A DNA stretch of 48,857 nucleotides from Emiliania huxleyi CCMP1516. Its lineage: Eukaryota. How positions within the stretch are numbered: the first letter of the stretch is position 1; each line of letters begins with the position of its first letter. The translations under genes and the position numbers were made by a program. Shown here in pieces: positions 18,750-48,857 of the stretch. The notes beneath the pieces are model-generated. The model saw nothing but the letters and a program-made list of their open reading frames with translations, was not told the DNA's origin and did not search any database. The DNA lies in NCBI RefSeq assembly GCF_000372725.1, contig NW_005201318.1, forward strand, positions 1 to 48,857, read 5' to 3'.

Positions 18750-18849
18750 NNNNNNNNNNNNNNNNNNNNNNNNNNNNNNNNNNNNNNNNNNNNNNNNNNN
18801 NNNNNNNNNNNNNNNNNNNNNNNNNNNNNNNNNNNNNNNNNNNNNNNNN
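18750..18849. other. Assembly gap (100 N)
   Basis: Run of n characters. Confidence 0.99.
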
Positions 18850-22784: not shown

Positions 22785-25700
22785 CGTTGGTGGCGTGGTG
22801 GTGGATTTGAGTGTGTGTGTGTGGGGGGGGGGTCGACCTGGATGCCGCCGCTAGTGGTCGAGATGGCAAGAAGGTAGCGGGCGAGCAGCGCAGCACCCGA
22901 AGCAGTCAGGGACGGGTCCGCCTCGGGGCCGAAGCAAGGGCGCAACGCCGCGCCCAGCTGCGCGTGCGACTGCTCGAGGAGGAGGTGGCCCTGGTAGTCG
23001 GGGTCGGGGGCGGCAGCAAAGCGCTCGACCACGTCCAGCAGCATCAGCACGCCGGCGGGGCGCATCGCCTACGGGGACCACAACTCCGGGGATCTGTCAC
23101 GGATTTGTCCCGCAGCCTCAGCACGCCGGCAGGCACGCGGCGCCTCGATCCGCGAAGTCGCGACGGTGAAAGCGACCGAGACGAGGCGGCCCAAATGCAG
23201 GACGAGCCGCTCCCCGCTGCCGCCCTGGCGCTCGGTCTCCTCGCGCGCGAGCGTGAGGTCGTAATGCGCGGAGTGGTCGGCAACGTCGAGGAGACGCCGC
23301 ACGCACTCGGCGGCGTAGAGACGCGTCTGCCAGCGCGGAGCCACGTGCGCCCACTTCGCGTTCTCCTCCGCCTCGAGCTGCGCCTCCTTCTGCCGCTTGC
23401 GATCCTCCTCTTCATCCTCGTCATCGCCACCCACCGTCGGCAGCCCCGACGCGTTCTGATCCCACCCGCTGCCCTCCTCGCCGCCCGCCTCCTCGTCGTC
23501 TCCGCGGTTGCTTCCTCGCAGCTCAGCCTCGCTCCGCACCACCTCCTGCACCACATCGCCCAACGTGCGGAGCCAAAAGATGGGCCGCTGCCCGCCATCT
23601 GCGTGAAGCAGCGAGAGCGTGACGCGCTTGGCGGCGTCGAGCGCCTCCCGGTCCACCTCGCCATCCATCAAGCTGAGCAACGCCACGGCCGCCCGGCCGA
23701 GAGTCGACGGCGGCATCGCGTAGCCCGTGTGTCCTGTCGCCCCGCCGCCAGCCCCGGCGACGCCAAATTCGCGCAACGCCTCGACGGCGGCAGCGCGCAA
23801 CCCTGGGTGGCGGGAGGCGAGTCCCCGCAGCACCGCCTCGTGGATCGCCGGCGGCGACGCGGCGACGGCCGAGGGGAGCGTGCCACTCGGGAGCGAGAGG
23901 AGGAGCCGCTCGAAGCGCAGCTCCTCAGCGAGCAGCGCCTCGGCGGCGCCGCCGCTCCTGCCGTCGAGGGGGTGGGCACGGCGCGCAGCAGCGACGAGGA
24001 CGCGGCAACGGAACAGCATCGCCGTGTGCTGCCCCCCTTTGTGCTGCGGCGGCTTGCCAGCGCCGGCCGCCGCGGAGAGCGAGGGCAGCAGCGACGCGGC
24101 GAGCGTGGTGGACAAGGCGGCGAGCCCCTGCGCCGCCCTCGCTGTGAGCGGCGGCGCGGGCGCGAGCGCGACGGCGGAGACGCCCGAGAGGGTTGCACCC
24201 GTCAGCGGCCTGAAGTCGCCCCCGAGCACCGCCGCCACGCGTGCGAGCGAGTGCAAAGCCCACTCCGAAGCGTGCCTGCCGCCGGCCGGGGGCGGCGAGG
24301 CAGTGGCGGTGGCGGTGGCGGCGGCTGGGGTCGGCAGTAAGCTGCAGAGGAGCTGCACGCCCGACCGCACGCGCCCAAACGCCGCGTGCTTGTCGGCGGC
24401 AGCGGCGGGCGCGGAGGAGGAGAGCAGGAGCCCGAGCGCGAGCGCGTGGCCGGCGCGGGCCTCCTCTTTTGCCTTCGTGTCCGTGAGGAGCTTGGCGGCG
24501 GCGGTCGAGAACGCGTCGGCGTAAGCTGCGCCGAGAAGCTGGCCGAGCAGCCCCACCGCCTGCGCGGCTCCACGGCGGACGGAGACGTCTGGCTCGGCGA
24601 GGCACGGCGCGAGGACGGCAGCAAAGGCGGGTGTGAGTTCGGGGCGAAGAGCGGAACGCGACGGCTTGGTGGCAAGGCGCTGCAGCGACCCGAGCAAAGC
24701 GGCGCAAATGTTGACCAACCCGGACGGCGCCTCGTCCTTGGCCGCGTCCGAGCCGCCGCCGCCGAAGAAGCCGCCACCCGTGCTCGGCTTGCTCTCCTTG
24801 GTGACGCGGGCCGCCGCGTTGCCCAAATGCCCGAGCAGCTGCTGCCGAACGTCGGAGGTCTGCAGCCGAAAGACGGCGCCGAAGAGGCCAACAGCGGCGT
24901 CGAGGCAAGCACCCTCGCTCGTCGCATGCGAGCCCCCACGTAGCTCAACCAGCCACTCGCACGAGCCCTCCGCCTGTTTGCAGACCGAAGCGTAAAGAAT
25001 GCGGGGCTGTCAGCTCGAGCCGTCGCTCCCCTGCTTCGCCTCAGCGCACGTGGCGCCCCGGAGAGGCTCGCAGAGCAGTGACGCGACGGGCGCGTCGGGG
25101 GCGGTGGCGGGTGCGAGCACGGCGTCGGCGGGCGCGAGCATCGACGCGAGGGCGGTGCAAATGGCGCCATGCGTGTTGGCGGGCTCGACGATGTCGGCGA
25201 CCACGAGCGGCATCACCACATTCAGCACCTACGCTCGGCCGCGGCGAAAGCTGTGGGATATCCTGCCCAAGGTGAGGCGCCTCCCCGAAGCCGCGCGCCT
25301 TGGCGGTGAGCGCAGAGGAGGGTAGAGCGAGTAGCACCTGCTCACAGTTGGAAACGTCCAGATGTGGTTTCCACACGACGCTGCTCGTGCCAGCAGCGCG
25401 AGCAGCACCTCGTAGAGCCGCGCGCGGAAGAGCATATAGGCGGCGCGGAAAGGCTCTGACATCAGGCGAGGCGCGTGCTCGCGGCAAGCGGCGAGGAGGG
25501 CGAGCGAGGGTGGGACAAAGGTCGAAGTGACCGGCTTGAGGAGGGGCAGCGCCGCCGACTCGGGCATGCGCTCGAGGAAGGCGCGCCTGATGAAAGGCCA
25601 AGGTGAGGAGAGGCTGCCACGCTCGCTACTGGGGCGCGCCGAGGGGGCGCACAGAGCGTGCAGCGCGTGCGCGCGCGCGTGCAGCTCGGCCTCGACCGCC

Positions 25701-27653
25701 TCGCGCCGCTTGGGGGTCACCTCGGGCGGCGGAGAGGCGAGAGCGCCCTTGAGCAGCGCGTAGAGCCGCGTGAGGCGAGGCTTGGCGGAGAGCCACTCGG
25801 TCGGGAGCGAGAGGAGGGCGCGCACGAGCATCCAGCCCGCCGCGCCGCCGGCGCCGCCCGCGGCAACGAGGTCGGCGGCGGCGTGCAACGCAGCGTTGGC
25901 GAGGGAGGACGGCCCCCCGTGCGGCGTGCGCGCCATCGCGCCGAGCAGCGTGCCCACAGCCTGCGCGTGCCCGAGTAGAGCGGCGGTGGCGGCCTCCCTC
26001 GGCGCGCCCTCCTTCGCCGCGGCCGCCTCGGCGGCCGCGGCGCGCAAGCGGTTGAGCGAGACGTTGAGCAGCGGCGCGAGGTGCGACGGGAAGGCGAGGA
26101 CGAGCGCCCAGAGGCAAGCGCAAGCGGCCAGGCGCAGCTGCCGGACGGGCGACGCGGCAAGGGAGAGGAGAGGCCGCTCGCCCTGCAGCAGCAGGTCGCG
26201 CGCGTCGGCGGCGACCTCGCGGAGCTGCAGCAGCAGCAGGTAGAGCTGCGAGAGGCACACCAACGTCAGCCCCTCTGGGGAGGCGCGGCACGACGCGTGC
26301 GCCGCCAGGGACGTGGCCATCGCCTGCTGCCCGCGCTCCGAAAGCCTCTCCCCCAACCCGGCGCGCAGCGCGTGAGAGATCGCCTCGGCGGCGAAGTCGC
26401 CCCGTCCGGACGCCTTGCTGCCGCCCTGCCCCTCGGCGGCGCCGTTCAACATACCGAGCAGCTGGGCGACGAGAAACTCGGAGTGGCGCTCCAGCTCGGC
26501 GCGCTTCATGCCGCCAAACACAGCCACGGTGGCGCGCGCGAGGCCGGCCCGCACCTTGCGCAGAGGGGGGGGAGGCGGGCTGAGCTGCGGAAGAGGCGGC
26601 CGCGCAGTGCGCAATGTGCCGCTAGTGCGCGCCTCTTTCGAGGCGCCCGGCTTCACAAACGGCGCCGAGAGCACGTTGGCCGCCGCCTCGATGGGGGAGG
26701 ATGCCTCGGCGCGCTTGCCCGGCAAGTTCATCTTGAGGCCGAGCTTGCGCGGCGCCCCCTTGGCGCCCCCTGCCCCGCCAGCGGCCGATGCGGCGCCGAA
26801 GCCCGCCGGCCGCGCCAGAGAGGCGAGCAGGACGTCCGCGAGCGCGCCTGCGGCCGCCGCCCGCACGACAGGGGAGGCGTCGTCGAGAGCGCGCGTGCAG
26901 AGCTGCGTGAGCGACTCGAAGAGATCTGCCACCTAGGGGGAGGGGGGGGGGGGTCCGGAGAGAGGCCGAGCGGCTGCGAAAGCCGCGCGTTGGCAGCAAG
27001 AGTGCCCAGAGGCCTTCGGAGTAGGCCGCGAGCATGGGGGCGGCGGCGAGGGCGGCGGCGCGCAGCTCGTTGGTCGAGCCGCGCTCCGTCAGCGCGTGCT
27101 TCAGGTTCTTGACCGCCTCATCCTGCGCGGCGCGAGGCACGCCGCCCGACCCGGTGCACGCGCGGCCGAAGGCGGCCCACGCCATCGGGCGGACAGACGG
27201 CTCCGCACTGCGGGTGAGCTTGGTGAGGAGAGTGATGGAGTCCAGGCAGAGCGAGACCATCGCGCCGCCATGCGCGGCGCAGAGCCCGCCGAGCAGGTGG
27301 ACGGTTGCCAGCTTCGCCGCGGGGGCGCTGGCTGGCGAAACCTTGTTGCTCAGCCAGGAGAGGAGCTGGCCAACAGTCGTGTAGAGAGTGGTGCGCGCTC
27401 CGCGGCGGTAGATTGTGATGAGCACGTTTGCACACAGCTGCGCCACCGCCGGAGGAGGGCCGAGCAGCGCCGCGCCGAGGCAGGACGCCTCGATGGACCC
27501 CTGCACCGCCTTGACCTGCTCCTCCCCGGCAACGGAGAGGAGGCCGCTCAGCTGGTGAAGGAGCTCGAGCTGGGCGGTGACGCCGTCGGAGGCGCCGCTC
27601 GTGCGTGCCGTCTCGACCGCCTTCTCGAGACGCGACGCGACATCAGCCAACAT
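20295..27653 (-). CDS. HEATR5: HEAT repeat-containing protein 5 (HEATR5/Laa1/SWEETIE, AP-1 accessory), multi-exon
   Basis: Family motifs PRWQTRLYAAECVRRLL, HYDLTLARE, LVLHLGRLVSVAFTVAT, RFAAAPDPDYQGHLLLEQSHAQLGAALRPCF and C-terminal KPKIALKMDF, spread over spliced minus-strand ORFs. Start codon and full exon list are approximate. Confidence 0.9.
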
Positions 27654-32796: not shown

Positions 32797-34794
32797 TCAC
32801 ACAGGGCGCGGGGCGAGCCACATCATCACTGGCTCGCGGCAATACGGGCACTCTCGCATCAGCTCGGAGCAGGGACCGCAGACGCACAAATGGCTGCACG
32901 GCACCGCGAGGTGAGACTTCGGCCGCTCGAAGCATATGATGCACGACGTCTCGCCTCCCATGGTGGACTCGGGGGCAGCCGGCCGCCCCGTGTCGAGGCC
33001 GGCGTCCGCTAGTGAGACGGCAGCAAGCGGCTCAGTGACTGGCAGATGCTGCTCCGCCGCCTCTGCCTCTGGCCCGATCAAGCGCTCGATGGCGCTGACC
33101 CGCTCCTCGAGGCCACCCCCGGTCGCCGCGCCGAGGCTCGCCTCCAGCCGATCGACACGCCACTGCAAGTCCCCGCCGCCGCCGGTCGACTCGCTGCTCA
33201 CCGCCTCCTCGCACCGCGACACCCGACGCGCCAGCGCCTCCTCCGCATCTGCCTCCGACCGGCGCAGTGCCTCTGCTAGCTCCGTAGCTTCTCGCAGCGC
33301 TGCCCGCTCCGCCGCGCCCGCTCGCTCTGCCGCCTCGCGCTCCGCTCGCCTCGCCGCCTCCTGCTCAGCAGCCAGCCGCGCCGCCCTCTCCTCCTGATCG
33401 CGAAGCTCTGCCGCAGCCTTCGCCCTCCGCTCCTCCTCGAGCTTGAAGGCAGGCAGCGCCTTCTTGGCCTCCTTGTTCTTCGCCTTGCCCTCCTTCCTAA
33501 CCGCTTTCTTCTCGGCCGCCTTTGCGCGCTGCCTCGCCTTCTCCTCCTCCGACCTCTTGTCAGCAGCCTCCTTCTCGCGCCGCTCTGCCTCTGCTTTAGC
33601 CGCCTTGCGCTCCGCCGCCGCCGCCCGCTGCTCCGCAAGCTGCGCCTCCTCTGCTGCTCGCCTCTCCGCCTCCCTCGCCCGAAATGTCTCCTCTGCTGCC
33701 GCGCGCTCAGCGGCCAGCTTCGCCTCCGCCTCCGCCGCAATCGCTCGCCTCTGCTCCTCCAGCGCCGCCGCATCCGCCGCCCGGCGCGCCTCGTCCGCCG
33801 CCTGCTCCGCTTCGCGCTGTCGTGCCGCCTGCTCGCGCTCTCGCGCCTCCGCCGCCTCCTCCCGCTCGCGCTGCTCGCGCCGCCCCTTGGCCTCGAGCGC
33901 CTTCGCTGCCGCCTTCTCTGCCACCTCGGCCTCCCTCAATGCTGCTGCATGCTCAGTGAGAGCGCGCACGCACCCTGCGTGGTCCTTTGCAAGTGCACTG
34001 GCGGCGTCGGCGGTCGCAGGCTTGGCCGCCTTCTCCTTGGCGATTTGCAGCGCGGACATGCCGAACCTCCCACAGCGAACCTCCGTCTCTGCGCCAGCCT
34101 GCAGCAGGCAGAGCACGATGGGGAGTTGGCCGTTGACGGCGGCGCACATCAGCGCGGTGTAGCCGATGCTGCTCTGCAAGTTGACCTCTGCGCCGCGCTG
34201 CAGCAGCAGCTCGACCACCCGCTCGTGGCCATAGGTAGCGGAAAACATCAGCGCGGTGCCGCTGTCGTTCTCCTGCAGGTTGACATCCGCGCCGTGCTGC
34301 AGTAGCAAGTCCACCACTCGATCGCGACCGTTGCCAGCGGCGAGCATCAGCGCGGTGACGCCGATGCTGTTCTTCAGGTTGGCATCCGCGCCGCGCTGAA
34401 GCAGCAGCTCGACCACCCGCTCGCGGCCTTCGATGGCGGCGTACATCAGCGCGGTGCGGCCGGCGTACCTCAGCGCGCTGCTGTCCTGCACGTTGATCTC
34501 CGCGCCGCGCTGCAGGAGCAGCTCGACCACCCGCTCGTGGCCGCCGATGGCGGCGAGCATCAGTGCGGTGGCACCGTCGCTGCTCTGCAGGTTGGCCTCT
34601 GCGCCGTGCTGCAGCAGCAAGGCAGCCACCCGCTCGTGGCCGTAGCCGGCGGCGTCCATCAGCAGGGTAACGCCAGTATTTTTGCCAGTCTCGCGCGCGG
34701 TGTTTGCTCGCCCGCCTCTCTCGAGCCACGAACGCACCGCCGCTTCGTCGCCTCGCAACACCGCGGCCACGTGCGGCTCGGCCGCGCTCGTCAT
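32797..34794 (-). CDS. Ankyrin-repeat + coiled-coil + C-terminal RING (C3HC4_3-type) protein, putative E3 ubiquitin ligase; intronless, 665 aa
   Basis: About 6-7 ankyrin repeats (GxTALMxAAxxGHERVVELLLQRGA), an E/A/R/K coiled coil, and CIICFERPKSHLAVPCSHLCVCGPCSELMRECPYCREPV. Confidence 0.9.
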   Translation of the reverse strand: MTSAAEPHVAAVLRGDEAAVRSWLERGGRANTARETGKNTGVTLLMDAAGYGHERVAALLLQHGAEANLQSSDGATALMLAAIGGHERVVELLLQRGAEINVQDSSALRYAGRTALMYAAIEGRERVVELLLQRGADANLKNSIGVTALMLAAGNGRDRVVDLLLQHGADVNLQENDSGTALMFSATYGHERVVELLLQRGAEVNLQSSIGYTALMCAAVNGQLPIVLCLLQAGAETEVRCGRFGMSALQIAKEKAAKPATADAASALAKDHAGCVRALTEHAAALREAEVAEKAAAKALEAKGRREQREREEAAEAREREQAARQREAEQAADEARRAADAAALEEQRRAIAAEAEAKLAAERAAAEETFRAREAERRAAEEAQLAEQRAAAAERKAAKAEAERREKEAADKRSEEEKARQRAKAAEKKAVRKEGKAKNKEAKKALPAFKLEEERRAKAAAELRDQEERAARLAAEQEAARRAEREAAERAGAAERAALREATELAEALRRSEADAEEALARRVSRCEEAVSSESTGGGGDLQWRVDRLEASLGAATGGGLEERVSAIERLIGPEAEAAEQHLPVTEPLAAVSLADAGLDTGRPAAPESTMGGETSCIICFERPKSHLAVPCSHLCVCGPCSELMRECPYCREPVMMWLAPRPV

Positions 34795-34871
34795 TCGCAG
34801 CTCGGTGTCCAGTCCGAGCGCCGACCCAGTTCGCGGATCTGAGACAAAAGAAACCCCGCGCTTTTGGTCGG

Positions 34872-34972
34872 GGTACGACCACGAGGTGGCATGAAGGTTG
34901 CAGCGAGAATAGGCGAGAGACTGCGAAGAGAGATAGGAAGAGGCAGACGCCCAAGGGTTTGGGCGACGGCTG
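34872..34972 (+). repeat. Short fragment of the LINE-like ORF 3' end
   Basis: Matches ~29940-30037 (gaggtggcatgaaggttgcagcgagaat..gggcgacggct). Confidence 0.8.
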
Positions 34973-36346
34973 AAGAACAGTCAGGCTGCCCCGTTTCAAC
35001 ACGAAGTGCTGCGATCGGGGGTGGCCCATTTCTTGGAGCACTTGGAGCTTTTTTCTTTTCTCTTTTTGGGTCCTGTGGGCACCCTATCACTGAGTCAGGC
35101 AGGCGCGGCGGTCGCTGGCTGCCGTTTCCCGCCGCCTCGAGCGTCGAGGCTGTCGTCGGATTGCAAAGCCTGCTCGTGCAGGTGGGGGCCCTGTCCTCCT
35201 CCCCCATCCCTCGTTTGGAAAGTGCAAGGCCCGGTGCGCGGTGTAGTAACGCTGGGTGCGCTTCTTATATCACATATCCTCTCTGCTCTCACGAGACAGC
35301 AGACACGAGACACACCGGAAGGGGAGAGCGGGGGCTGGGGCGGGGGCGGGGGCGGCGGCGCGCGGCGCACGCGCGACTGAGGGCAGGGGGTGGGGACTCC
35401 CGCCGTGCACACGCTGCGCGCACACGCACCACATACCCTCATGAGACATACTGAGGGAAGGACGGATCGGCGGCGGCGGCGGCGGCGGCAGCGGCGGCAC
35501 AGCGCGCGCGCGGCGCGCGCGACGGAGGGGCGGAGCAGCGACCGCTGGCAGCGACCGCGCACGGTCGCTGCTCCGTCTGTCCCGGAGCGCCGTCTGCGCG
35601 GGGTGCGCGTCAGGACAGGGGGCAAGCGTGGCGGCGCGGGGACACGCACGCAGCAGGCGAGGGGGCGGCGGGTGACGGGGCAAGGGAGCAGCCCACACCC
35701 GACGCGTCGCTTTGAGCGAGGTCGAAGAAAGGGCCTGCGCAGGGGCCGCAGGGCGGTCAGTGGTGAGGCGAGGCGGAACTGGCCGCGGGCAAGGCGTTGT
35801 GAATGCTACGTGTGTGTGTGTAAGGCCGGTACGGAGGGGGCGCGGGGGGAGACGCACACTGTAGCTTTTGGGGGCGGAAACACGTTTTAATTCACGCGAG
35901 GGCGCACGTGAGGCTTCTCGCGCGTATAACGGTGTTCCCGAGTGTCGGAGACATGTACCCACAAGCCCATAAGCTTGGCTTACCTCGGCTCGGGGCTCCT
36001 CGAGAGCACGTTGCGAGCGAGGGTTGGGGTGGGGGGAATCCAGGGGGTCGTTGGCGGAACCGGCATGGTTTTCCACCGCGTGCGACCCCGCTAATCGTTG
36101 CATGCTCAAGCCGACAGCGTCTCTCTGCGCCGTGCATCAGAATGGGATTCTGCTTGCCTCTCGCCTCAACATAGTCATAACATGTACATGTACATGCAGA
36201 CCAACTCCGGGACTACGACGTGCTCATCGTCGCGCTACGCGCAGAAGGGCACGTCCCCTCCCACTGGCATGGAGCGCCTAGCTCTCACCAACTCACAGTT
36301 CGTTGACAAAATGCGTTCATCGGCTAGTATCCCGAGAGTCGTCGCT

Positions 36347-39008
36347 CTACACCCTGGAGAGTTGCTTGCTACTACTGCCGCGGCGCTGTTCTTCCGCGTA
36401 CTTGAGCGCGATGTCTCGCGGCACAATCGGACGGCTGCTGCCTGCTTCCGAGGTGCGGGATTTGCCGAGGCGCTTTTCCGATGTTGATTCCGGTGTGGAC
36501 GTCGGCTCTGGCTCCATGCTGATGGTGTGCGGCAGAGACGGCTCCGTGCTGACGGAGGGCCGAAAGCGTGAAGGCTCCGTGCTGACGGAGCCCCGAGTGC
36601 GTGAGTTCCGGCCGGGCTGCCGCGAAGGCTCCAGGCTACCCAGAGTGCGTCTGATTAAGCTCCCCGTGTGGCGGAGGTCCGCCGAAGCGCGCGCGTGGAG
36701 GCCCTTCGTGGCGGTCGCGCCGAGGTGCTTTGCAAGGAGCACGAGGGACACCTACAACGAGCACATGACACGTCGAGCGCTGCGCGCCTCGGAGGCAAAG
36801 AGAGTGTGAACAGAGAGAGCGCGCGCCTCGTGGTGCGGCCATGCCCTCGGGAAGCACGGGTGCGCCATGTCGCGGTACAGCCCATCTGCGATGAGCTCCT
36901 GCGGCGTGGTCTCGAAAAATCTCGCAAAGATGCAGCCGCCCTTTTCGGGGTCGTTCTCGTGCGCCATCACGATCTTGAGCTTGTCCTCGCGCGCCTGCTT
37001 GATTTGCTCGGCCAGCCCGGGCCGCTCGTCCGACCATGTCTCCTGGTTGAGGTAGAGCAGCATGTGGGTCGCGTCGTCGGCCTCCTCGGCAGTGGAGACG
37101 GTGAGGCCGGCGAAGGATTTGGCGAGCTCGTTGGCCAGATCCTCTGCGCCCGGGTTGGCAAGCGAGACCCGGACCGTCACTCGTTCGCTAAAGGCGAACG
37201 ACGAGATCCGCGACTCGTCCGCGATGCAGAGCGGGAGGGAGACCTTGTTCATGTAGGCGGGCGTGCAGAGGAGCAGCGCCTACAGCATCAGTGCGGGGTG
37301 TGGGGGAGATGCTGGTTCGGCCGTGGCTGCGGCCTGCGGCGCCTCTGCGATGATCTTGAGCGATACGCGCTGGAAGTCCTCGGCTCGCATCCAGACTGCG
37401 TGCGGCCGGTGCCTCTCAAAGATGATCCGCTGGAGGGTCTCGGGGCAATCTTCGCGCAGCTCCTCCATCGTCCCGCCGCCCTTTGTCGGGTCCGCCTCTT
37501 GCACGAGGACGATCGGCTTGTTCATCTCGAGCGACGAGCGAACCTCCCGGAGGCAGTTCTGCGGCGCGGGGGGGGCGGGGGGGGTGAAGCCCGTGTGCAG
37601 ACACCATCGGTGGGGGGTTGGCGCGCCTTGGAGCGGAAGTAGCCCTGCGAGAGGAAGAAGAGGATCATCGTCGTGTCTCGAATGTACTCCTCGAGCGCCC
37701 CGATGTCCTTGAGATCATCTACCTATGCGCACACCGCGGTGCGTCAGAGGGGCTCTGTGTGTAGCTAGCGCGGCTGAGCATGTGCGCGCGTCGAGGAATA
37801 TCTTGACCCCTGGTAGTAGCAGCATGAGCTGCTTCTTGATGACCGCGGCGGCGTCCTAAGGGAAGGAAGGCCGCCTCTCCGGACTACTCACATAAGTCAC
37901 AAGTGGAGCAGGGGGGGCCACCTGCCCCGTGCTCCAGATGTGGCTGTTGAAGAGGTGCCACTTGATCCCGTGCGCGAGGGTCAGCTCGGGCTGCTGGTTG
38001 GTCGAGACGAGGCGGAACGTGGGCAGCTTGGCGACGCGACGGGCGGCGAAGATGGCACCGATGAGGAAGAAGATGAGGACGGCGGCGACCAGGGCGATCA
38101 TCGAGTCGACAATCACATTGAGGCTGCTGAAGCCGAGGACATCGGCGGGGTCGGCTCCCTGGTACCGCTCCTCGATGCCGAGGTAGATGGTGGTCCAGTT
38201 GGTGCCGAGGAAGAGGAGGAGGAGCACGAGGCTCGTGGCGACGGCTAGCACGTCGTCCTCGACCCGATTGTAGGGGCGCACGATGGCGATCGCCACCGAA
38301 TAGCAAACGCAGACGAGCGTCGCCACCACGAGGCGAACAAAGGCGCGCTCCTCTGGGATCAGCAGCACCGCGCCCGTCAGAACGAGCTTGCGCGCCAGCT
38401 CGAGCGCCTCCCACCAGTAGTAGGTCAGCGCGTACTCTCGATGCAGGAAGCGAGTGGCGCGCGTCAGAGCAGTCCGCGTCTTCTTCTTCAGAGGCTTGTA
38501 GCAGGCGGCGAGGAGCGACATGTACAGGACCAGCGAGCCAATCGGCCAGACGACGATGAAGCCCTTGGCGAGGTTAGTGATGGGCTTGTGCTCGTCGGTG
38601 CCGCACTCAACGCTCGCGTCCTGCCGCATGTAGGAGACCTGCTCTAGCTCCTCGCCGGGCGGAGAGATGGTGTAGGCCTACGAGCAACACGTTGCGAGGA
38701 CTGAGGGAACAAGGTTGAACGACACAGTCCGGCTGGTGTGCGACTCGGAGCCTGGCACGACCACGCACGGAAGATGGAGGCGCTGACAGAAGGGACGAAG
38801 CAAAAGATGAGAATGAGCGCTGCCGGCATGAAATCGAGGAGGCCGAGGGCCGCCTCCACATACCAAGGTATCGCCGAGATCGCTGTCACCACCGACACCT
38901 CCTCCTCCGCAGGCGCTTGGTCCCTCGTCAACTGACGTTTGCGGTGGATCCGCCTGTGGTGGATCCGCAGCCCGATACCTGCCGATGGGGAGAGGGGTCA
39001 GCCCACCG

Positions 39009-39048
<40 letters not shown>

Positions 39049-41946
39049 GGCCGGGGAGGGGGGTGGGAGGTCGCCCGTGAGTAAGAGCAGCGCGATGAGA
39101 CTGGCCGGCGTGATCGTGACCGCGAGGAGTCGAGACCGGTAGGGCAGGCACTGCGGCGGCAAGAGAAAGGCAGTCCAGTCGATGCTGATCGCCTCGGCCA
39201 GCTTGTCAGTCCAGGACGTGTACTCAATGGGCAGCCGCGCCGAGTAGGTGGTGGTGAGGACAATGCAGACCTGGTAGAAGCCGAGCAGGATTTTGAGCTT
39301 CGGCGTAAAGCCCATGCCGACGTAGAAGACGACGGCGCGGTCCGCGAGGCGGAGGATGCGGCCGATGTAGCCTGGCTTCTTTCGCCAGCCCTTCTTGCTG
39401 TAGGCCCAGGCCGCGATGCCGCACGCGACAAAGACGCAGAGGAAGAGGCCGGCGATGCGACCCACCACGGAGCCAAGTGGGAGGCAATCCCTGCAAGTGT
39501 CGCCTTCGACGAGGTGGTGCTTGTCCGCGACGCAGAGCCGGCACTCGGGGCCGTAAAAGCCGGGAGCGCAGTACTCGTACTCGTCTGACGGGCTCACCTC
39601 CTCGATCATCCGGCGGCGAGAGGCGTCCCCCGCATCCAGTTCGCTGCCAGCGCATCGCGTCTTGCCGGCCTCGCCGTCGCCGCCAAAGGAGCGGCACTCT
39701 GTCAGTGCGGCACTCGAGGAGCTAGCGCGCCAGTAGCCTTGAGGGACGACGAGGGTCTCGAGCGTGGTGTTGGTCGGGCAGAAGGCGTTCGGCGGGCAAG
39801 GTTTGCAGTGCTCTGTCGGTGCCATCCAGATGTCTTTTTGGTCAACGGTCGTCGACAGCAAATAGTAGCCCTCCTTGCAAATCGAGCAGGTGACGCCGCC
39901 GCTCCCACTACTCAATGGATGGGGGCAGCGAGTGCACTCGCCCTGGCCAGGGTTGGCGGCGTAAGAGCCGGCGGCGCACTCGCTGCAGAAGTCGCTGCCG
40001 GTGCCGGAGGAGGTGCCGGGGTCACAGCTGGCGCACTTCGAGAGTCCAGGGGTGACGGCGACGGAGCCGGGCGAGCATTCCGCCGGCGGCGCCGCGCCGC
40101 CGCCGCACGACGATCCCACCGGGCAGTCGAAGCAGTCGGGATCGCCGTCGTCGTCCGTCACGTTGGCATACGTGCCCGGATCGCACGTTGCCGCCAGCTC
40201 GAGCGTCGCGCCCGCGGGGCAAAAGCGGCCGGGTCGGCAATCGATGCAGCTGGTCGCGCCGGTCGCGCTCTGGTAGGAGCCCTGTGGGCACCGCTGGCAG
40301 GCTTCGTTGCCAACCCCAAACGCGATGCTGCCGGCGCGACAAGGCACGCAAGTAGCGTTGCTGGTCGCCCCGGTGACAGAGCTCGAGGTGCCGGCAGGGC
40401 AGAGAAGGCACGATTCAATTGAGGTGGAGCGGCTTTCCGGATTGTACCTGCCCGCCGGACATGCCTGCCGCACCATGCTCCCGTCCTCCACCTCGCAGAA
40501 GCCGCCCGGCTCGCAGTCCTTACAGTCTGAGCTCCCGGTGTTGGCGGAGTAGGTTCCGTCAGGGCAGGCGGTGCAGATCGCCTTCCCGCTCTCCGACTGG
40601 TACTGTCCGCGCGGGCACGTGAGGCAATCCTCGAGCCTTGACGCTCCAAACAGAGGCATGCGTGTCCCAGGCGGGCAGGGCACAGGCAGCGCGCTTCCCT
40701 GCTCGCAGAAATGTCCGAGGGGGCAAATACCGCTGCACCCAGCGGTCGCAAGGCTGGTGGCGTTGCCGTAGTACCGCTCCGGACAGGTGTTGCAGCCGCG
40801 CACGTCGCCCGTGAACTCGCCACGAGTGGGCATCCATTCGCCGAGCGAGCAGGGGAACCAGCTTATCTCAGAGTTCGCCAGGATAGTGATTCCGTCACTG
40901 TCAGCGATGTTGCTCACAAAGATCGAGTCGTCCACCGAGCCCTGCATGGAGTCGGAGCGCCAGCCGCTATAGAAGAAGGCCGAGGCTGTGTTGGCTCGGT
41001 TGTTGCTCAGATTGGACCGCACGAGGGTTGCGATGCTCGTGGCACTCTCGAAGTTGACTCCGCCGCCGCGTCCCACGGCCGTGCTGCTCATCACGGCGCT
41101 GTCGGACAGCGAAAGCTTATCACTTTCGGTCATGGCGATGCCGCCGCCATTTGCGCCGGCGGTGCAGCCTACGATGTTCGAGCTGCCTGTGAGCGCAAGC
41201 GCGCCGCTCTGCCGGATCGAGATGCCGCCGCCGTCGCCCTCCGCGTGGCAGCCAGAGAGGCTCGACCTCTCGAGCTCGACATCTCCGCTGTCGGCCATGG
41301 CGATGCCGCCGCCATCTCCACCGGACTCGGAATCCTTGATGCTCGAGTCGGCCAGCTTGAGAGAGCCTGCACCGGAGCCTTGGATGGCCCCGCCGCCGTT
41401 CTCGGAGTAGCCGTTGACGAGCGTCAGCCCTCGGAGGGTGAGACTGCAGCCGCCGGAGAGGGAGAAGAGTCGCGAACGACCCTGTCCGTCGAGGGTTGCG
41501 CCGACTCCGCTACTGCGAATGGTTATGGTGATGTTGCCGCTGCATTCCAGCGATGAGTCGAGCACCTCGGCTGCGCGGCGGCCGATTTCCGGCGACGAGG
41601 GCGGTGGCGGCGGAGGAAGTGCTGGCGGCGGCGGAGATGAAGGAATCGGCGGAGAAGCCGGAGGTCTTGGCGGCGGTGGGGGCGGTGGCGGAGATGGCAG
41701 AGATGGCGGCGGCGGCGACGACGACGACGGCGACGGCGGCGGAGAGGAGAGCGGCGATGGCGGCAAGAGCGGCGGCAGCGGGGCAAGCGGCGGTGATGAC
41801 GGCGGCGGCAGCGGCGGAGAGATTGGCGGAGGCGACGACCGCGGTGGTGGCGACGGCGGCGGTGGCGACGGCGGAGGTGGGCTTGGGGGAGGTGGGCTCA
41901 GGGGCGGCGGTGACAGCGGAGGCGATGGCGACGTCGGAGGCCATGT

Positions 41947-41977
<31 letters not shown>

Positions 41978-44900
41978 AGTGGCGGCCGCGGTGGTGGCGA
42001 CGGCGACGGCAGATGCTCTCCATCGTGGAGCTGGAGATTTGTGATGCTCCCAGGAAGCTTACGCGTATTGTCCCAGCACCCAATTTGCCCGTTGGTGAAG
42101 CTGGCGGACTGGCCTGGCGAATTGGTCTGGCAGGTCGTATCCAGGTTACCATTGACATATATCTTCCCGTAAGCCGCCTTGCTGTAAATCAAAGTGACGT
42201 CGTATGTCGCGCCTGTCGTCAAAAACTCGCTCGAGAAGCAATTATTGATACCCGTTGCGGACAAGCCAGCCATGTACCCGTTCATGACCGCAAAATTGAT
42301 TCTGTCGGAATGCGCTAACACGTGCACGTTTCCTGGGGACCAACCGGTGTTACTCCAGATGCTCGCACCAGGATTTGCCGTGAGTTGGTTCAGGGTGAGC
42401 TCGAAACTCATGGTGAAGGCGTCTGTATCGAAATTCCGGGGATCCGACAAACACGAAGCCGAGCCCTCGAGGTTGTCCCAAGACACGACGAGTGGAGGCC
42501 ATGTCGGCGGCGGCGGCGGCGGCGGCGGCGATGGCGGTGGCAGAGGTGGCGAGGGTGGCGGCGGCGAGAGTGGCGGCCGCGGTGGTGGCGACGGCGACGG
42601 CAGATGCTCTCCATCGTGGAGCTGGAGATTTGTGATGCTCCCAGGAAGCTTACGCGTATTGTCCCAGCACCCAATTTGCCCGTTGGTGAAGCTGGCGGAC
42701 TGGCCTGGCGAATTGGTCTGGCAGGTCGTATCCAGGTTACCATTGACATATATCTTCCCGTAAGCCGCCTTGCTGTAAATCAAAGTGACGTCGTATGTCG
42801 CGCCTGTCGTCAAAAACTCGCTCGAGAAGCAATTGTTGATACCCGTTGCGGACAAGCCAGCCATGTACCCGTTCATGACCGCAAAATTGATTCTGTCGGA
42901 ATGCGCTAACACGTGCACGTTTCCTGGGGACCAACCGGTGTTACTCCAGATGCTCGCACCAGGATTTGCCGTGAGTTGGTTCAGGGTGAGCTCGAAACTC
43001 ATGGTGAAGGCGTCTGTATCGAAATTCCGGGGATCCGACAAACACGAAGCCGAGCCCTCGAGGTTGTCCCAAGACACGACGAGTGGCGGGGCGAGTGGCG
43101 GCCGCGTTGGTGGCGTTGACGGCGGTGGCGACGGCGTGGATCCCAACCTGATGTGGGCGCCCGGTGCCAGCAGGATCGATGTGTCCTGGCCCGTGCTCAC
43201 TGCTTCAGCAATCAGGTTGCGAAGCTCACTCTCCGTCGCAGCGGAAGTCTCGCGAGGCCAAAGAGGGGGCAGCGGCGGCAGCGGGGGCGGGGATGGCGGA
43301 AGCGGCGGAGCCGACGGCGGGGGTTGCGGAGGCGGCGAGGGCGGCAGCGACGGCGGCGGCGAGGGCGGCGGCGAGGGTGGCGGCGGCGAGGGCGGCGGCG
43401 AGGGCGGCGCAAAAGCCACGACAAAGGTGGCCGTGCCTGAGCCCCCGTTGCTGAAGCTGAACTTCTGATCGGTCCAGCCTGGCGCCTCCCACTCGGCTCC
43501 GTTCCACCCGTCGCCATACGAATCGAACATGTCGAGGATGCAGGAGCCCGGCGGCACCGCGTATGTCCCCGCGTAGGGGGCCCCACCCGTGATGGGACCG
43601 GCGAGGCCCTCGCAAGCGAGCGACCAGGAGACTTCGTTGGCGTACGAGCCGCTGCTCACGGCGATGTCGGAGGTGACCAATGGCGGCAGCAGTGGGGGTG
43701 GGGGCAGAGAGGGCGGCGATGGCAGAGAGGGCGGCGATGGTCGAGAGGGCGGCCGCGGTGGTGGCGACGGCGGAAGCGGCGGCGGTGAGGGCCAGCAGTG
43801 CAACGGCACAATCTGCTGCCGCCCCGACGCCTCCCAGAAATAGTCGGAGCGCGCAACACGGGTCACACCCGGCGTAGTCTCGAGCGTCTCCCAGGTCGAT
43901 CCGTCAGTGCTGCCCTCGAGAAACCACGAGGTAGGCGACCAGTGATTCGGACCGTGATCGTACATTGAGCGCACAGCGTACGACGAGATTGACACGGGCG
44001 AGCTGAAGTGGAACGCGAGCCAGCCTGTGTTGATACCTCCTTGAGAGCAGTAGTAGCTGCTGCCATCCACCGTATCCGTGGCCTGGTTGAACGCAGTATC
44101 ACAGCTGTACAAGGCAGAAAACTCGGACTCTGCGGTGCACGAAATGCTGCTTGTCGTGATCTCGGTTCCAAGTGCGTCCAAAAAGTCCAGCTCCTCGATA
44201 CACCAGTAGTTGGCGGCAGGCGCACCATACGAATCGACCCGCATCCGGACGTGCTCGTACGTGCAAGAGCCGAGTGGTGACGGCGGCGGCGGTGGTGACG
44301 GCGGCGGCGGAGAGGGCGGCGGCGGCGAGGGCGGCGGCGGCAGGAAAGGTGGCAACGGCGGCGGCGGCGGCGAAGGCGGCGGCGGCGGAGAGAGAGGCGG
44401 GAACAGAGGCGGGGACAGTGGCGGCGGGGGCGGGGGCGGGGACAGAGGCGGCGGAGACGCGGCCGCCCTGCCGACGAGCAGCACGGCGGCGGCCACGCGG
44501 ACTTGGGCGGCGGATAGGTCGAGCGAGGCGACCCGCCCGAACAGCAGCAAGGCTCCCGCGCCGATGACGCCCGTCTCGACCAGCCTCCGGGCCTTCCCAG
44601 CTGCGTCGGGGGACCACGACTCGGGCACGGTGTACATGGACAGGGCGGCCGGGAAAGTGCCGCGCCCCCGAGCGTTCGGATTGTACTTGGCGGCCGGCTC
44701 GGTCGGATTGTACTTCACGATCGAGGCCTCGAAGGCCACGACGAACAGGCCAACGATTGCGATGAAGTAGAAGATGTGGGTGTGGCAGACGGAGAGGAGA
44801 GCGCGGCAAATGCAGGCGGTGCTGCCGCCGCCGGCCTGGGTCAGGACCCGGTTCTTCTTGGCGCGCTTCGAGCTCTTCTGGCCCTTGTGTGGGCCGGCCT

Positions 44901-45582
44901 TGCTGGCCGAGGTAGACGAGGCACCCGACCGCAGCAGGCCCAGAAGCGCGAGGATGCACCCCATCATGATTAGGGCACACACGAAGCGGGACCAAGGTAC
45001 GAGCGGGACCGTCAACTGCTTGATGACCGTTTCGAGGATGGGACGGTGAAGTTGCCGTCCTTCAGGTACTGCTTGCCCGCGATGAACTCCGCGAGCAGCT
45101 CCTTCTCGACGCCCGACAGCCCCGTGTTCTCCGACGCGCGATGCCAAAGTTGGCGCACCGCTTCTCGCAGCTGCCGCTGAGTCTCGGGGTGAGCCTGAGC
45201 CGGGCTTGATCCGTGTCGCCCGCTGGCAGATGCGAGAGGCAGGCGCCGTCTCCTCCTGGAGGGCGCGGCCAGGCGCGGAAGAGGAGTGTCCGCTCATGAA
45301 GGGAAAGTGGAACGGGGAGGGCAAGTCGACGGAGAGCTCATCGGCCGGCGGGTCCGCGGGCGGCCTGTCGGTCTTGTAGAGCTCGTCGGTGAGCGCGTGG
45401 CGAGGCTCCGCGTGCCACGCATCGGCGGCGCAGCGAGGCTGCCAGTCGGCGCACACACTTGAGACCGAGAAGAGATCGGCCGACTCCGCCATCTTCGGGT
45501 CGGCGATCTGGGTGGTGTGGAGCCCTGCGGGCCGCGCTGGGTGCTTCGGCGGCTTGCCCCAGTCGCGTTCGCGGGTCCCCTC
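36347..45582 (-). CDS. Giant multipass receptor-like protein: Pro-rich linkers, discoidin/F5-8-like module, 2x LamG/ConA-like modules, Pmp-like beta-helix, GCC2/GCC3 Cys-rich repeats, ~9 TM, TIR domain + second TIR-like domain
   Basis: Exons 45582-39075, 38978-38752, 38677-37922, 37855-37790, 37722-37627, 37558-37343, 37279-36827 and 36751-36347 join in frame via GC/GT-AG introns. The TIR reads WHLFNSHIWSTGQ|DAAAVIKKQLMLLLPGVKIFLD|VDDLKDIGALEEYIRDTTMILFFLSQGYFRSK|NCLREVRSSLEMNKPIVLV. Confidence 0.85.
41972..43087 (-). repeat. In-frame tandem duplication (period 591 nt) of the LamG/ConA-like module
   Basis: 41972-42496 and 42563-43087 are essentially identical. I saw only one difference, synonymous (aattattg vs aattgttg). 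Confidence 0.95.
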
Positions 45583-45721
45583 CTGCGCCGCCAAGAGGAG
45601 TGGCTTAGATAGGCAGGCAGCCCAGGCGGCGCCCCGGCCGGGGATGGGGAGAGGTGAGAGGAGTGCAGTGAGCGAGCGCGTGAGCGGCGCGCTGACGTGG
45701 TGAGTGCGGTGCAAAAGCCGC

Positions 45722-48142
45722 CTGATCCGCCCACTCGAGCTCTCCCTGCCCGTCCTCGAGCAGCGAGGAGTCGGCGGTGCGTCGCCGGTCGGCGCACCCG
45801 CTTGAGACGGGGAAGAGGTCGGCCGACTTGGCCGTCTCAGAGCGGAGCGGGCCCCGCTGGATCGCCGTCATCAAAGTGATGTTCTTGTCGAAGATGGCGC
45901 GCACGAAGTCGCGCGCGCAGGTCCGGAGCAGCTTCTCGCCCTGCGTGCTCTCAATTGTCGGGCGTGAGGCGGCCCCCAGCGTCTCGCCGCCGTCGGCGCC
46001 GCAGGTGCGAGAGGCAGGCGCCGTCTCCTCCTGGAGGGCGCGGCCAGGCGCGGAAGAGGAGTGTCCGCTCATGAGGCAAGTCGTCGGGCTGAACTCATTC
46101 GCTGGCGTGGTGTTGGAGAGGTCGAGAACCTGCGGAGATACACGGGCGCAGGAAGAGTCAGCGTGTGGTGCTAGGAGCCTTCGCGCTCCAGTTTTATTGC
46201 TAACCGGGATCGAGGCCGCGTCGGGCACCGGCACCGACAGGAGCTCGGAGACGCCGCCAGAGCCGTACGAAGAGAGTGCAAAGGAACAGCCCAGACCGAC
46301 GACCACGGTGAGGAAGACACACAGCAGCTTTGTCGAGCAGAACTTGCCAAAGCGGAAGCCGGAGCGCGTCGAGGTCGGCTCGGTCTTCTCCCCGGCGCCG
46401 CCCTGACAGTGCGGGCGAGGGTGAGTCACGAGCAGGCAGGGTGCGCTGAACGGGGAAGGCAGCATGCGCCGAAGGCATCGACGACGTCGGCGGGGCGTCG
46501 TTGACGGACGCGTCGCCGGAGCCGACGCCAACGAGGTCTTCCTCGTCGTCGAACGCGTTGCCGGAGCCGACGCCAACGAGGTCTTCCTCGTCGTCGAACG
46601 CGTTTCCGGAGCCGACGCCAGCGAGGTCTTCCTCGTCGACTTCGGTTCCGAGCAGCGCCGCGAACCCATTGGGGTCGACGCGGCCAATCGGGGTGAGGTT
46701 CTTGGTGGTCTTCTTGGAGCGGTCGATCAGGTTGGACTCGCCCTTGCGCTCGATCTTGCGGAGCGGGGAGGGGGTCTTCCACTCGTCGATGCCCTGCGCG
46801 CGCGTGACGTGCGGCAGACGAGAGGTCACAGGGTCAATGTAAGTGCCCGCCTGTGGGACTCGCGTGTCCCCGCAATACCCGCGTGTGCACAGAAGGATGC
46901 TGGGAGGTGCTCACCGCCGGGGCGGCCGTCTCCTCTGGAAACTCCTTGGTCGAAACGTTCCAGTCGGCGTCGCCCTACGCGTCGAACGCGGGATGGGGTC
47001 ACAGAGTGGGTCGGCAGACGGCGCAGAATGTCAAGCGCTCGCCGCCGGGGCGGGCTTCTCCTGCGGAAACTCCTTGATCGACGGCAGCGTCTCGCCGCAA
47101 ACCGCCGCCGGCTTGAGGGCCGCGTCGATCTTGGTGACGGGCTTGAGCGCCGGCGGGGTCGTTTTGAGGCCGGTCTCGTCAACGGAGGCCTCCGCGCCAG
47201 ACTCTGCCGCAGGGATGTCCTTCTTGAGGGCGCCCTTGACGGCGCCGGTGGGGGCCGTCGGACGCGGAAACTTGGACCAGAAAACGGCGGTCGGGCGCGG
47301 CGCGTGGGTGGCGAACATGGCCTTGGACTTGTCCGAGTCGACCGCGCCCGCGTCGGGCGCCTTTTCCGCGGCCGGGTCCTTCTTGAGGACGTCCTCCGTG
47401 CCAGACTTCGCCACGGAGATGTCCTTGACATCGTTCTTGACGCAACACGCCTGTGGGCGAGGGAGAGTACGCGCAGGCTTTCGGAGACGGGAGAGGGATG
47501 ATCACAATCCTGGCGTGCGCACGCGCACCTTGGCTCCGAGGAGCGAAGTGGCCTTGGCCTTGTCCGAGTCGACCGTGCCCGCGGCGGGCGCCTCTGCCGC
47601 GGCCAGGTCTTTCTTGATGATGCTCTCGTCGGAGGCCTCCGCGCCAGACTTTGCGGGGACGTCCTTCACGAGGGCGTTCTTGGCGCCGCACGCCTGTGGG
47701 CCAGGGACGATACGGCGGCGTTGGGACGGGAATATCGCGCTGATAGGATGAACATGCGCACAGACAGGCACCTCGGCTCCGAGGAGCGAAGGGGATTCCG
47801 ACGCAAACGAGAGGACGATAGTGACTCGGCCGCCGTCGCCAGCCGGCACGAAGCCGACCTTTGCTTTGTAGTCGATGTTGTCCATGATCGAGTTGTCCTG
47901 TGCAAGTCGCATCATCATGAAAGTTGAGACGGGCGCTTGCATTGGATGTGCAACAGCTACATTGGAGGTGTACGGGGTCTGAAATGAGAGGGATGGGGAC
48001 GGGGGACAAAGTCGATAAGCCTGCGGGGCGGGGCGGGGCGGGGGGGGGGGAGGAGGTGTTCGCGAGTCGTGGAACGGGCGCGGACCTCGCGGGGAAGGGG
48101 GAACGGGCGTGGGCAGAGCAAGCGCACCGCATCGGCCGACAT
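45722..48142 (-). CDS. Probable upstream exons of the TIR receptor (low-complexity repeats, one TM); may be a separate gene
   Basis: Phase-0 exons at ~48142-48128, 47897-47772, 47693-47529, 47450-47043, 46974-46915, 46793-46470 and 46402-45722 can be spliced to 45582. They share the peptide MSGHSSSAPGRALQEETAPASR with the big exon. Confidence 0.5.
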
Positions 48143-48857
48143 CCCGCAGCGAGGAAGTTGGTGGAGAGGAGCGGGCGTCACGAAGGCGGGAGGAATCGAC
48201 GGGGGGGAGGACGGAGGGACTCGGGGCTGCCGAGCAGCCAGGGCGGCTGCGCCCCGCTGCGACCTGCAGGCACTTTGGTGCGAAGTCAGAAGGGGGAGAG
48301 AAATAGGTGCGGTTTCATCGCGAGGGCTGGCTTGGCGAGTGCGGGAAGTGAGAGCGAACCCGTGTGGTTGAAGGCCAGGATCGAGCCGCGCACCGAGCAG
48401 CCGAGACCAAAGTGCTGGTTCCGCGCACAGAGTCGTCGACGTTACGTAGTGGGAAGACGAGCGCCGCCCCGGCAGCCAGGAAGACCGAAGCACTTTGCGC
48501 CGGGGATTGTGTGTTTTGTGGCGGGGCGTATGCTGTGTGGCGTTTGTGCGTCTGGGAGATGCGTATGGACTAGGGGGCGCGGCCGCTCACGAGCAGCCAG
48601 AACGCACCTGTGGGTGGCATGCGTTCGGGGGTCGCTTTTCGCTGGCCAGCGGGAAGGGTTGGGCTCGGACAAGGGCGAGAGGGTCGCCTGTGTACGAAAT
48701 GCTGGAGGACACAGGTGACAGCGTGCACAATTCGAAGGGAGACGATGTGTTGAGGACACAGGCGAACTTGAGGGACACAGAGAAATGGGACGAGGATTCT
48801 CATTACATGAGAATGCATCAGCCGAAATTTCAACTTTGGGACAGCCCCCCCCCTCCC

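What the first reader, a model, noticed from the sequence alone, without database searches (positions are those of the whole stretch)
36347..45582. Giant multipass TIR-domain receptor: a candidate Toll-like/immune receptor class in an alga
Seen: splicing the short 3' exons reveals a full TIR domain (FxSH, IFLD|VDDL, ILFFLS.GYF.S.NCLREV) just after about 9 hydrophobic helices. Upstream is a ~2,000-aa ectodomain of lectin-like, beta-helix and Cys-rich modules. The Glu of NCLRE (37546-37544) sits where the catalytic Glu is in the WCxxE motif of NAD+-cleaving TIRs. Known: TIR NADases (SARM1, plant TNLs, bacterial Thoeris) signal immunity or cell death on oligomerisation, whereas animal TLRs are single-pass. 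The membrane block carries Y..WE..EL.RKL and RPY motifs as in TRP/PKD2-like (Flc-type) membrane domains, not GPCR motifs. Inference: a ligand-sensing, membrane-anchored TIR enzyme, perhaps a pattern-recognition receptor for viruses, bacteria or grazers. An odd TM count would put the TIR in the cytosol.
Basis: partly seen in the sequence, partly recalled or inferred. Interest (0 to 1): 0.88.

Follow-up and report, generated by a model that had tools for sequence, protein, structure and literature searches.

The report
Algal nine-pass receptor with tandem TIR
A bloom-forming alga carries a spliced gene for a very large membrane protein with predicted sugar-binding modules outside, nine predicted membrane helices and two TIR immune-type domains predicted to lie inside, and it likely acts as a surface receptor that cuts NAD+ into a signal; relatives were recently reported as virus-induced genes, but neither enzyme activity nor an immune role has been tested.

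Summary

The gene belongs to a large haptophyte family (host most likely Emiliania/Gephyrocapsa huxleyi). Shaler et al. 2025 already reported multipass, Glu-keeping TIR genes of apparently this subtype as virus-responsive in G. huxleyi, so the class is not unknown. The full layout (variable ectodomain, CRMP/Flc-like nine-helix core, active-plus-degenerate TIR pair) was not found in my literature searches.

Best reading: a ligand-gated TIR NADase receptor. Activity, ligand and immune role are untested, and some relatives have small-molecule-type sensor domains. No contig spans ectodomain to TIR for this gene.

The parts
45722..47918 (-). Upstream spliced, multicopy module (disordered repeats, one hydrophobic helix); its last exon joins the receptor frame; start codon unresolved
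   Evidence: RNA joints at 46204-46130, 46914-46794, 47042-46975 (may come from other copies); one X1 contig joins 45722 to 45582 in frame; similar sequence fused upstream in models P0025 and P0062; no Pfam hit in 2 minus-strand frames scanned
45583..45721 (-).
   Evidence: (table 8, X1 record 5)
39075..45582 (-). Giant exon, 2,169 codons: N-terminal hydrophobic segments, ectodomain, TM1-TM3
   Evidence: shuffle control
44470..44988 (-). 3-4 hydrophobic segments, the last signal-peptide-like; targeting unresolved
   Evidence: hydropathy 2.42, 2.37, 1.59, 1.45; no Pfam hit
43786..44271 (-). F5/8-type (discoidin / galactose-binding-like) module
   Evidence: PF00754 E 1.6e-5 and PF22633 E 2.9e-4, both below cut-off
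43408..43677 (-). 90-aa module with a DSYGDG motif, no family name
   Evidence: no Pfam hit; shared with 4 paralogue models
43141..43251 (-). N-cap of the beta-helix, separated from its body by the inserted lectin cassette
   Evidence: cap-to-body gap 554 aa here, 26 in P0005, 123 (a different insert) in P0289
42601..43086 (-). LamG / concanavalin-A-like module, copy 1
   Evidence: PF13385 E 1.4e-7, 32.2 bits, cut-off 27.6
42010..42495 (-). LamG module, copy 2 (recent tandem duplication, between Pro-rich spacers)
   Evidence: 485 of 486 nt identical to copy 1 at 591-nt offset; not checked against reads
40825..41589 (-). Right-handed beta-helix body
   Evidence: NosD E 5.4e-4, below cut-off; Beta_helix above cut-off in paralogue P0004
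39475..40824 (-). Cys-rich ephrin-receptor-like / TNFR-like repeats (stalk)
   Evidence: PF07699 E 1e-19, 5 stretches
38045..39468 (-). Nine-helix membrane domain, split by two introns; predicted N-out, C-in
   Evidence: hydropathy and loop charges; AlphaFold model of paralogue P0009, pLDDT 86; no clear PDB fold match
37277..37963 (-). TIR1, spread over 5 exons, with all conserved motifs
37544..37546 (-). Catalytic-position Glu of TIR1 (NCLRE)
   Evidence: 186 of 187 rows; aligned to the Glu of RPS4 and Cat1 in weak HMMER alignments, E 0.12-0.14
36719..37183 (-). TIR2: degenerate tandem copy; FxSH and DVDD motifs lost, Gln at the Glu position (37006-37004)
   Evidence: blastp to TIR1 E 2e-8; hhalign probability 98.2, E 4e-14 over 90 columns; five-strand alpha/beta order in the model; Glu 92 and Gln 29 of 157 rows
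36347..36718 (-). Ser/Arg-rich C-terminal tail and stop codon
   Evidence: covered by RNA contigs

Best explanation
This is a spliced gene for a cell-surface protein that likely works as a ligand-gated TIR enzyme: predicted glycan-binding modules outside would sense a surface ligand, the nine predicted helices would relay or cluster the signal, and the predicted cytosolic TIR1 would cut NAD+ into an ADP-ribose-type messenger that likely feeds defence signalling. Shown: the reading frame, the splice joints from TM3 through TIR2, domain order and the conserved Glu. Predicted: TIR fold, nine helices, C-terminus inside (each about 0.9). Inferred: TIR1 is an active NADase (about 0.7); TIR2, which has lost the first-strand and loop motifs but keeps its C-terminal half, is a built-in structural or regulatory partner; the family varies its specificity by swapping modules between Pro-rich spacers; the main role is sensing viruses, bacteria or grazers (about 0.5).
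For: 7 of 7 introns seen in RNA contigs, two of them in contigs with 0-1 mismatches to the window. TM+TIR1+TIR2 in 124 of 235 proteins held, including named E. huxleyi and Prymnesium parvum records; the set was fetched with these domains, so the share is biased. Paralogue P0016 holds Cys repeats, nine TM and both TIRs in one protein. Glu 186 of 187, Ser 187 of 187, His 186 of 187. Best fold match is the SARM1 TIR. Odd loops carry more K/R (8, 7, 8, 2, 4 against 4, 3, 1, 1 in the window protein; mean net charge +5.1, +2.1, +2.2, +0.4, +1.7 against -0.5, -3.6, -0.6, -3.0 in 88 rows). TM-end to TIR distance is nearly fixed (median 33 aa, IQR 32-35, n = 164). Ectodomains differ widely on a constant core. 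In G. huxleyi, cogent2584_i1 (annotated TRP, DUF1863, TIR; 5 TM) rises log2 5-6 in infection and 373cFLNC_128518286 log2 2.6-2.9 (PMC12489294 Tables S2, S9); I matched them to this subtype by eye from motifs.
Confidence: 0.45

Rival explanations
1. Same receptor-enzyme, but for general sensing (nutrients, contact, prey or mates) or for triggering secretion, as CRMPs trigger exocytosis in alveolates; virus induction of relatives would be a side effect.
For: ANF_receptor in 5, FG-GAP in 5 and GPS in 4 of 51 long relatives; EF-hand and PDZ add-ons. CRMPs have Cys repeats, lectin domains, nine TM and a cytosolic C-terminus, and act in rhoptry exocytosis (PMC9670195, PMC9815656). The core also occurs without TIR (P0290-P0294).
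Against: Motif-matched relatives respond to virus and one is a core resistance gene; a recent duplication and module swapping are typical of conflict genes (inference).
Confidence: 0.25
2. TIR1 is a non-enzymatic scaffold that recruits adaptors as animal TLR TIRs do; the Glu is structural.
For: Adaptor TIRs are nearly tied with SARM1 in the fold search; only 4 of 29 protist TIRs gave a product in one screen.
Against: Pocket-type residues are nearly invariant in TIR1 but lost in TIR2 of the same proteins, which points to selection on a catalytic or nucleotide-binding site.
Confidence: 0.12
3. The nine-helix domain is an Flc/Pkd2-like Ca2+-permeable channel or transporter, and the TIR pair regulates it or supplies its ligand.
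For: PF06011 hits in 9 of 73 relatives (best E 1.6e-4) and an HHsuite TRP annotation in PMC12489294; fission yeast Pkd2 has nine predicted helices, an outer N-terminal domain and a cytoplasmic tail; conserved Lys, Gln, Trp and Glu inside helices.
Against: All PF06011 hits from my scans are below the cut-off of 28.5 bits, and the window's own exons gave none.
Confidence: 0.1
4. The 3' TM-TIR part is expressed, but the giant 5' part of this copy is a chimera with a multicopy element, is not on the same transcript, or holds an assembly duplication.
For: RNA contig cover is patchy over 41.7-44.5 kb, the 45.6-48 kb module is multicopy, and the two LamG copies differ by 1 base in 486.
Against: One 2,169-codon frame carries ectodomain and TM1-3 without a stop; an X1 contig with 1 mismatch bridges Cys repeats to TM4; many relatives have ectodomain-to-TIR in one protein.
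Confidence: 0.08

Closest known systems
G. huxleyi virus-responsive TIR genes (Shaler et al. 2025, PMC12489294; cogent2584_i1, cogent9830_i1, 373cFLNC_128518286, cogent2074_i1)
   Same: Same TIR motif pattern (compared by eye), conserved Glu, multiple TM helices (5 and 8 predicted for two of them), receptor-like role proposed
   Different: This gene is not in their Table S9; the sections I read do not describe the nine-helix core as a unit, the second degenerate TIR, a giant shuffled ectodomain or the family's size
SARM1 / TIR-1 and plant TNL TIR NADases
   Different: Those are soluble, with ARM-SAM or NB-LRR activation; here a multipass membrane protein with a tandem TIR; activity untested
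Animal Toll-like receptors
   Same: Predicted outside sensor, membrane crossing, cytosolic TIR
   Different: No LRR hit, nine helices instead of one, two TIRs, enzyme-type TIR1; an analogue, not a member
CRMPs of Toxoplasma, Plasmodium and Tetrahymena (PMC9815656, PMC9670195)
   Same: Lectin, beta-helix and ephrin-receptor-like Cys modules before nine TM; C-terminus cytosolic (shown for TgCRMPa); GAIN/GPS in some members of both sets
   Different: No TIR is mentioned for CRMPs in the passages read; homology to a named CRMP was not shown here
Fungal Flc / fission yeast Pkd2 (Pfam PF06011 'TRP')
   Same: Nine predicted helices, outer N-terminal domain, weak profile hits over the same block
   Different: Hits below cut-off; no Ig-like lipid-binding domain found; no TIR described in Pkd2; channel activity untested here

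Membership tests
TIR domain superfamily | Five-stranded alpha/beta TIR fold | tested here: met
TIR domain superfamily | Pfam TIR_2 above cut-off | tested here: inconclusive
   The window's spliced TIR could not be scanned and its single exons gave no hit; closest paralogues score 23-27.6 bits against 28; others pass, e.g. P0023 32.3 and P0024 33.1
Enzymatic (NAD+-cleaving) TIRs | Glu in helix alphaC | tested here: met
   186 of 187 rows; aligned with the RPS4 and Cat1 Glu (weak E-values)
Enzymatic (NAD+-cleaving) TIRs | NAD+ cleavage on oligomerisation | not testable with these tools
   needs an assay
Enzymatic TIRs (second copy, TIR2) | Conserved pocket motifs and Glu | tested here: not met
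   First-strand and loop motifs not conserved; Glu in 92, Gln in 29 of 157 rows, Gln in this gene
Toll-like receptors | LRR ectodomain | tested here: not met
   no LRR hit in the ORF or its modules
Toll-like receptors | Single membrane helix | tested here: not met
   nine helices
Toll-like receptors | Cytosolic TIR | tested here: met
   prediction only: odd helix count and positive-inside pattern
CRMP | Ephrin-receptor-like Cys repeats followed by nine TM | tested here: met
   definition from PMC9815656
CRMP | Sequence homology of the core to a named CRMP | tested here: inconclusive
   TM profile reached 5 distant, unnamed, TIR-less proteins among 11 hits, no named CRMP; search limited to 7,985 candidates
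CRMP | Role in regulated exocytosis | not testable with these tools
   needs cell biology
Flc/Pkd2-type (PF06011) | Pfam TRP above cut-off | tested here: not met
   0 of 73 relatives pass, 9 of 73 give weak hits; none for window exons; one precomputed label on P0086 was not rescanned
Flc/Pkd2-type (PF06011) | Nine-helix membrane domain with outer N-terminal domain | tested here: met
   helix count only, no structural comparison possible
GPCRs and six-helix TRP/polycystin channels | Shared membrane fold | tested here: inconclusive

The most novel reading that the evidence does not exclude
Haptophytes have independently built a large, fast-shuffling repertoire of Toll-like surface receptors on a CRMP/Flc-like nine-helix core, each wired to an active TIR NADase paired in cis with a degenerate TIR; ligand binding at the surface would directly make a cADPR-type immune signal, giving the E. 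huxleyi-EhV system its missing pattern-recognition receptors.
Probability: 0.3. Interest if true: 0.85.

Novelty: new variant of a known kind. Interest (0 to 1): 0.6.

Why it matters
How bloom-forming algae detect giant viruses is open, and PMC12489294 points to TIR genes without a mechanism. This family offers a concrete receptor design that can be tested at once: TIR1 against TIR1+TIR2 and the Glu mutant in the E. coli cADPR/Thoeris reporter assays of bioRxiv 10.64898/2026.04.20.719644. The nine-helix core has no clear match among solved structures and recurs in many proteins, so a version with an enzymatic output would be a handle on how that core signals. GC-AG introns, the majority type in E. 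huxleyi (PMC4028052), break automatic models of these genes, which may hide the family's size.

Tried and rejected
No whole genome is held for this window, so paralogues were not counted in the assembly.

Complex prediction on two copies of the tandem TIR gave 'no answer' (score 0.01, mark 0.32, alignment not used); it is no evidence either way.

PDB sequence searches: A1 gave 0 hits at E <= 1; A2 gave only weak hits, E 0.12 and above; the LamG module gave 0. Fold searches with the TM model gave no clear match; this does not show a new fold.

Viral contigs: 146 pattern matches, none confirmed. Prokaryote genomes: 1 of 12 matches passed, a 27-residue hit judged chance. ESM Atlas: P0001 gave haptophyte TIR_2 clusters; P0002 with TIR and ephrin families skipped gave no usable hit; P0009 is not held.

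A search for named CRMP or Flc relatives gave none. Parts of the 5' region without RNA cover were not taken as evidence of absence. The identifier search was probably malformed and was redone.

Literature searches that found no description of the full layout. The library lacks most subscription journals. Rose et al. 2014 on lipid-raft TIR proteins was seen only as cited in PMC4236053. One supplementary file of PMC12489294 (s001.txt) was too large to read, and I did not see the supplements of bioRxiv 2026.04.20.719644, whose Table S4 may list tested haptophyte TIRs.

Rejected: a pseudogene or frameshift reading of the 3' end (the joints restore one frame), a GPCR reading (nine helices), and true TLR membership.

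Full report
Gene model. The region is about 65% GC. On the - strand one frame runs without a stop from 45582 to 39075 (2,169 codons; longest frame in 200 shuffles 604). Seven introns of 63-96 nt, six GC-AG and one GT-AG, join eight exons into one frame ending at 36347; counted from 45582 the product is 2,908 aa. GC-AG is the majority donor type in E. huxleyi (56% of 241 curated junctions; PMC4028052, passages). Of 13 runs listed I laid four on 36100-41700. All seven predicted introns match joints in length and place: X2 7 of 7, X1 5 of 7, X5 5 of 7, X12 0 of 7. The likeness limit was 92%, so some joints may come from paralogues, but two X1 contigs crossing joints have 0 and 1 mismatches over 540 and 947 nt. 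No contig spans the gene. At the 5' end one X1 contig joins 45722 to 45582 across a GC-AG intron in frame, so the gene continues into a multicopy spliced module at 45.7-48 kb and the start codon is unresolved.

Host. The best hits are E. huxleyi CCMP1516 models at up to 81% identity, many labelled 'TIR domain-containing' in UniRef (11 of 22 hits; four more). The host is most likely E./G. huxleyi or a close relative (inference).

Outside part. After 3-4 hydrophobic segments come about 1,660 aa of modules between Pro-rich spacers: an F5/8-type domain, an unnamed 90-aa module, two LamG copies, a beta-helix and five ephrin-receptor-like Cys repeats (LamG and ephrin above cut-off, the others below). 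The LamG copies are 485 of 486 nt identical and sit between the cap and the body of the beta-helix. The cap-to-body gap is 554 aa here, 26 in P0005 and 123, with an unrelated insert, in P0289 (only these three matched my pattern). Among 51 long relatives scanned (53 chosen, 2 dropped for size), the same TIR-bearing family carries beta-helix, ANF_receptor (5), FG-GAP (5), GPS (4), CUB, MAM, LamG, chitinase, WD40 or Kelch domains.

Membrane part. A simple hydropathy scan found 7 helices above 1.5 in this block; nine were then defined by hand, with family mean hydropathy 0.94-2.19, and the AlphaFold model of paralogue P0009 (62% identical, pLDDT 86) fits them. Loops after odd helices are basic, and loops after even helices are neutral or acidic and hold the conserved Cys, so the C-terminus is predicted cytosolic. 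No solved fold matches clearly. Pfam PF06011 gives only sub-cut-off hits in 9 of 73 relatives. Fission yeast Pkd2 has nine predicted helices (bioRxiv 10.1101/2022.08.11.503631, passages). Apicomplexan CRMPs have Cys repeats plus nine helices, with the C-terminus shown cytosolic for TgCRMPa (PMC9815656 and PMC9670195, passages). Both are likenesses; homology to a named member was not shown. That PF06011 is the fungal Flc family is partly recalled and partly from the listing.

What is in print. Shaler et al. 2025 (PMC12489294; abstract, passages, section 20, rows of Tables S2, S7, S8 and S9, Fig. [quoted passage not shown] Four listed genes share this TIR's motif pattern by eye; cogent2584_i1 is also annotated TRP. 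This gene is not listed. bioRxiv 10.64898/2026.04.20.719644 (passages, sections 5 and 9) shows some protist TIRs are active (4 of 29 tested) and places a 3'cADPR-making algal TIR in a group that includes haptophyte and thraustochytrid TIRs; whether TIR1 belongs there was not tested, though a thraustochytrid TIR was a weak hit (P0096, E 2e-8). PMC13142454, PMC4236053 and bioRxiv 10.64898/2026.10.11.758280 (passages) do not describe this family in the passages read. Searches found no account of the full layout. An unchecked note of this scan (e1-7365674) reports a similar nine-helix, two-TIR layout in another protist; it is a lead, not support.

Verdict. The protein works like a Toll-like receptor in layout and like SARM1 in its predicted output domain, but it is a member of neither family. 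Best mechanism: ligand-gated, membrane-bound TIR NADase in defence signalling (0.45). Rivals: general sensing or secretion (0.25), scaffold TIR (0.12), channel (0.10), split or chimeric 5' part (0.08). Novelty: new variant of a recently reported kind; interest 0.6.

Noticed in passing
window 45722-48300 (- strand): A spliced, repeat-rich module without Pfam hits that is extremely deep in run X10 and multicopy in X12; similar sequence is fused upstream of receptor models P0025 and P0062. It may be an abundant gene family or a mobile 5' cassette.
   Followed up: partly
protein P0018 (residues ~270-400): The same membrane block is fused to a different C-terminal domain that looks TIR/HET-like by eye and has no Pfam hit above noise: the output domain seems swappable.
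   Followed up: partly
protein P0098: Holds two complete membrane+TIR+TIR units in one 2,498-aa record; it may be a fused gene call.
   Followed up: no
proteins P0032, P0042, P0046, P0048, P0052, P0099: EF-hand or PDZ domains on the TIR side, some between TIR1 and TIR2, suggesting Ca2+ or scaffold control.
   Followed up: no
proteins P0063, P0070, P0103, P0104, P0135: Venus-flytrap (ANF_receptor) ectodomains on the nine-helix tandem-TIR core: a class C GPCR-type sensor wired to a TIR.
   Followed up: no
window 7602-10455 (+): Class C GPCR-like gene (7tm_3, E 2.6e-27).
   Followed up: no
window 32797-34980 (-): Ankyrin-repeat plus RING finger gene just downstream of the receptor.
   Followed up: no
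window 13355-14443 (-) and 23069-26932 (-): Ribosomal L1-family domain; weak HEAT-repeat hits.
   Followed up: no
window 18750-18849: 100-base assembly gap of N.
   Followed up: no
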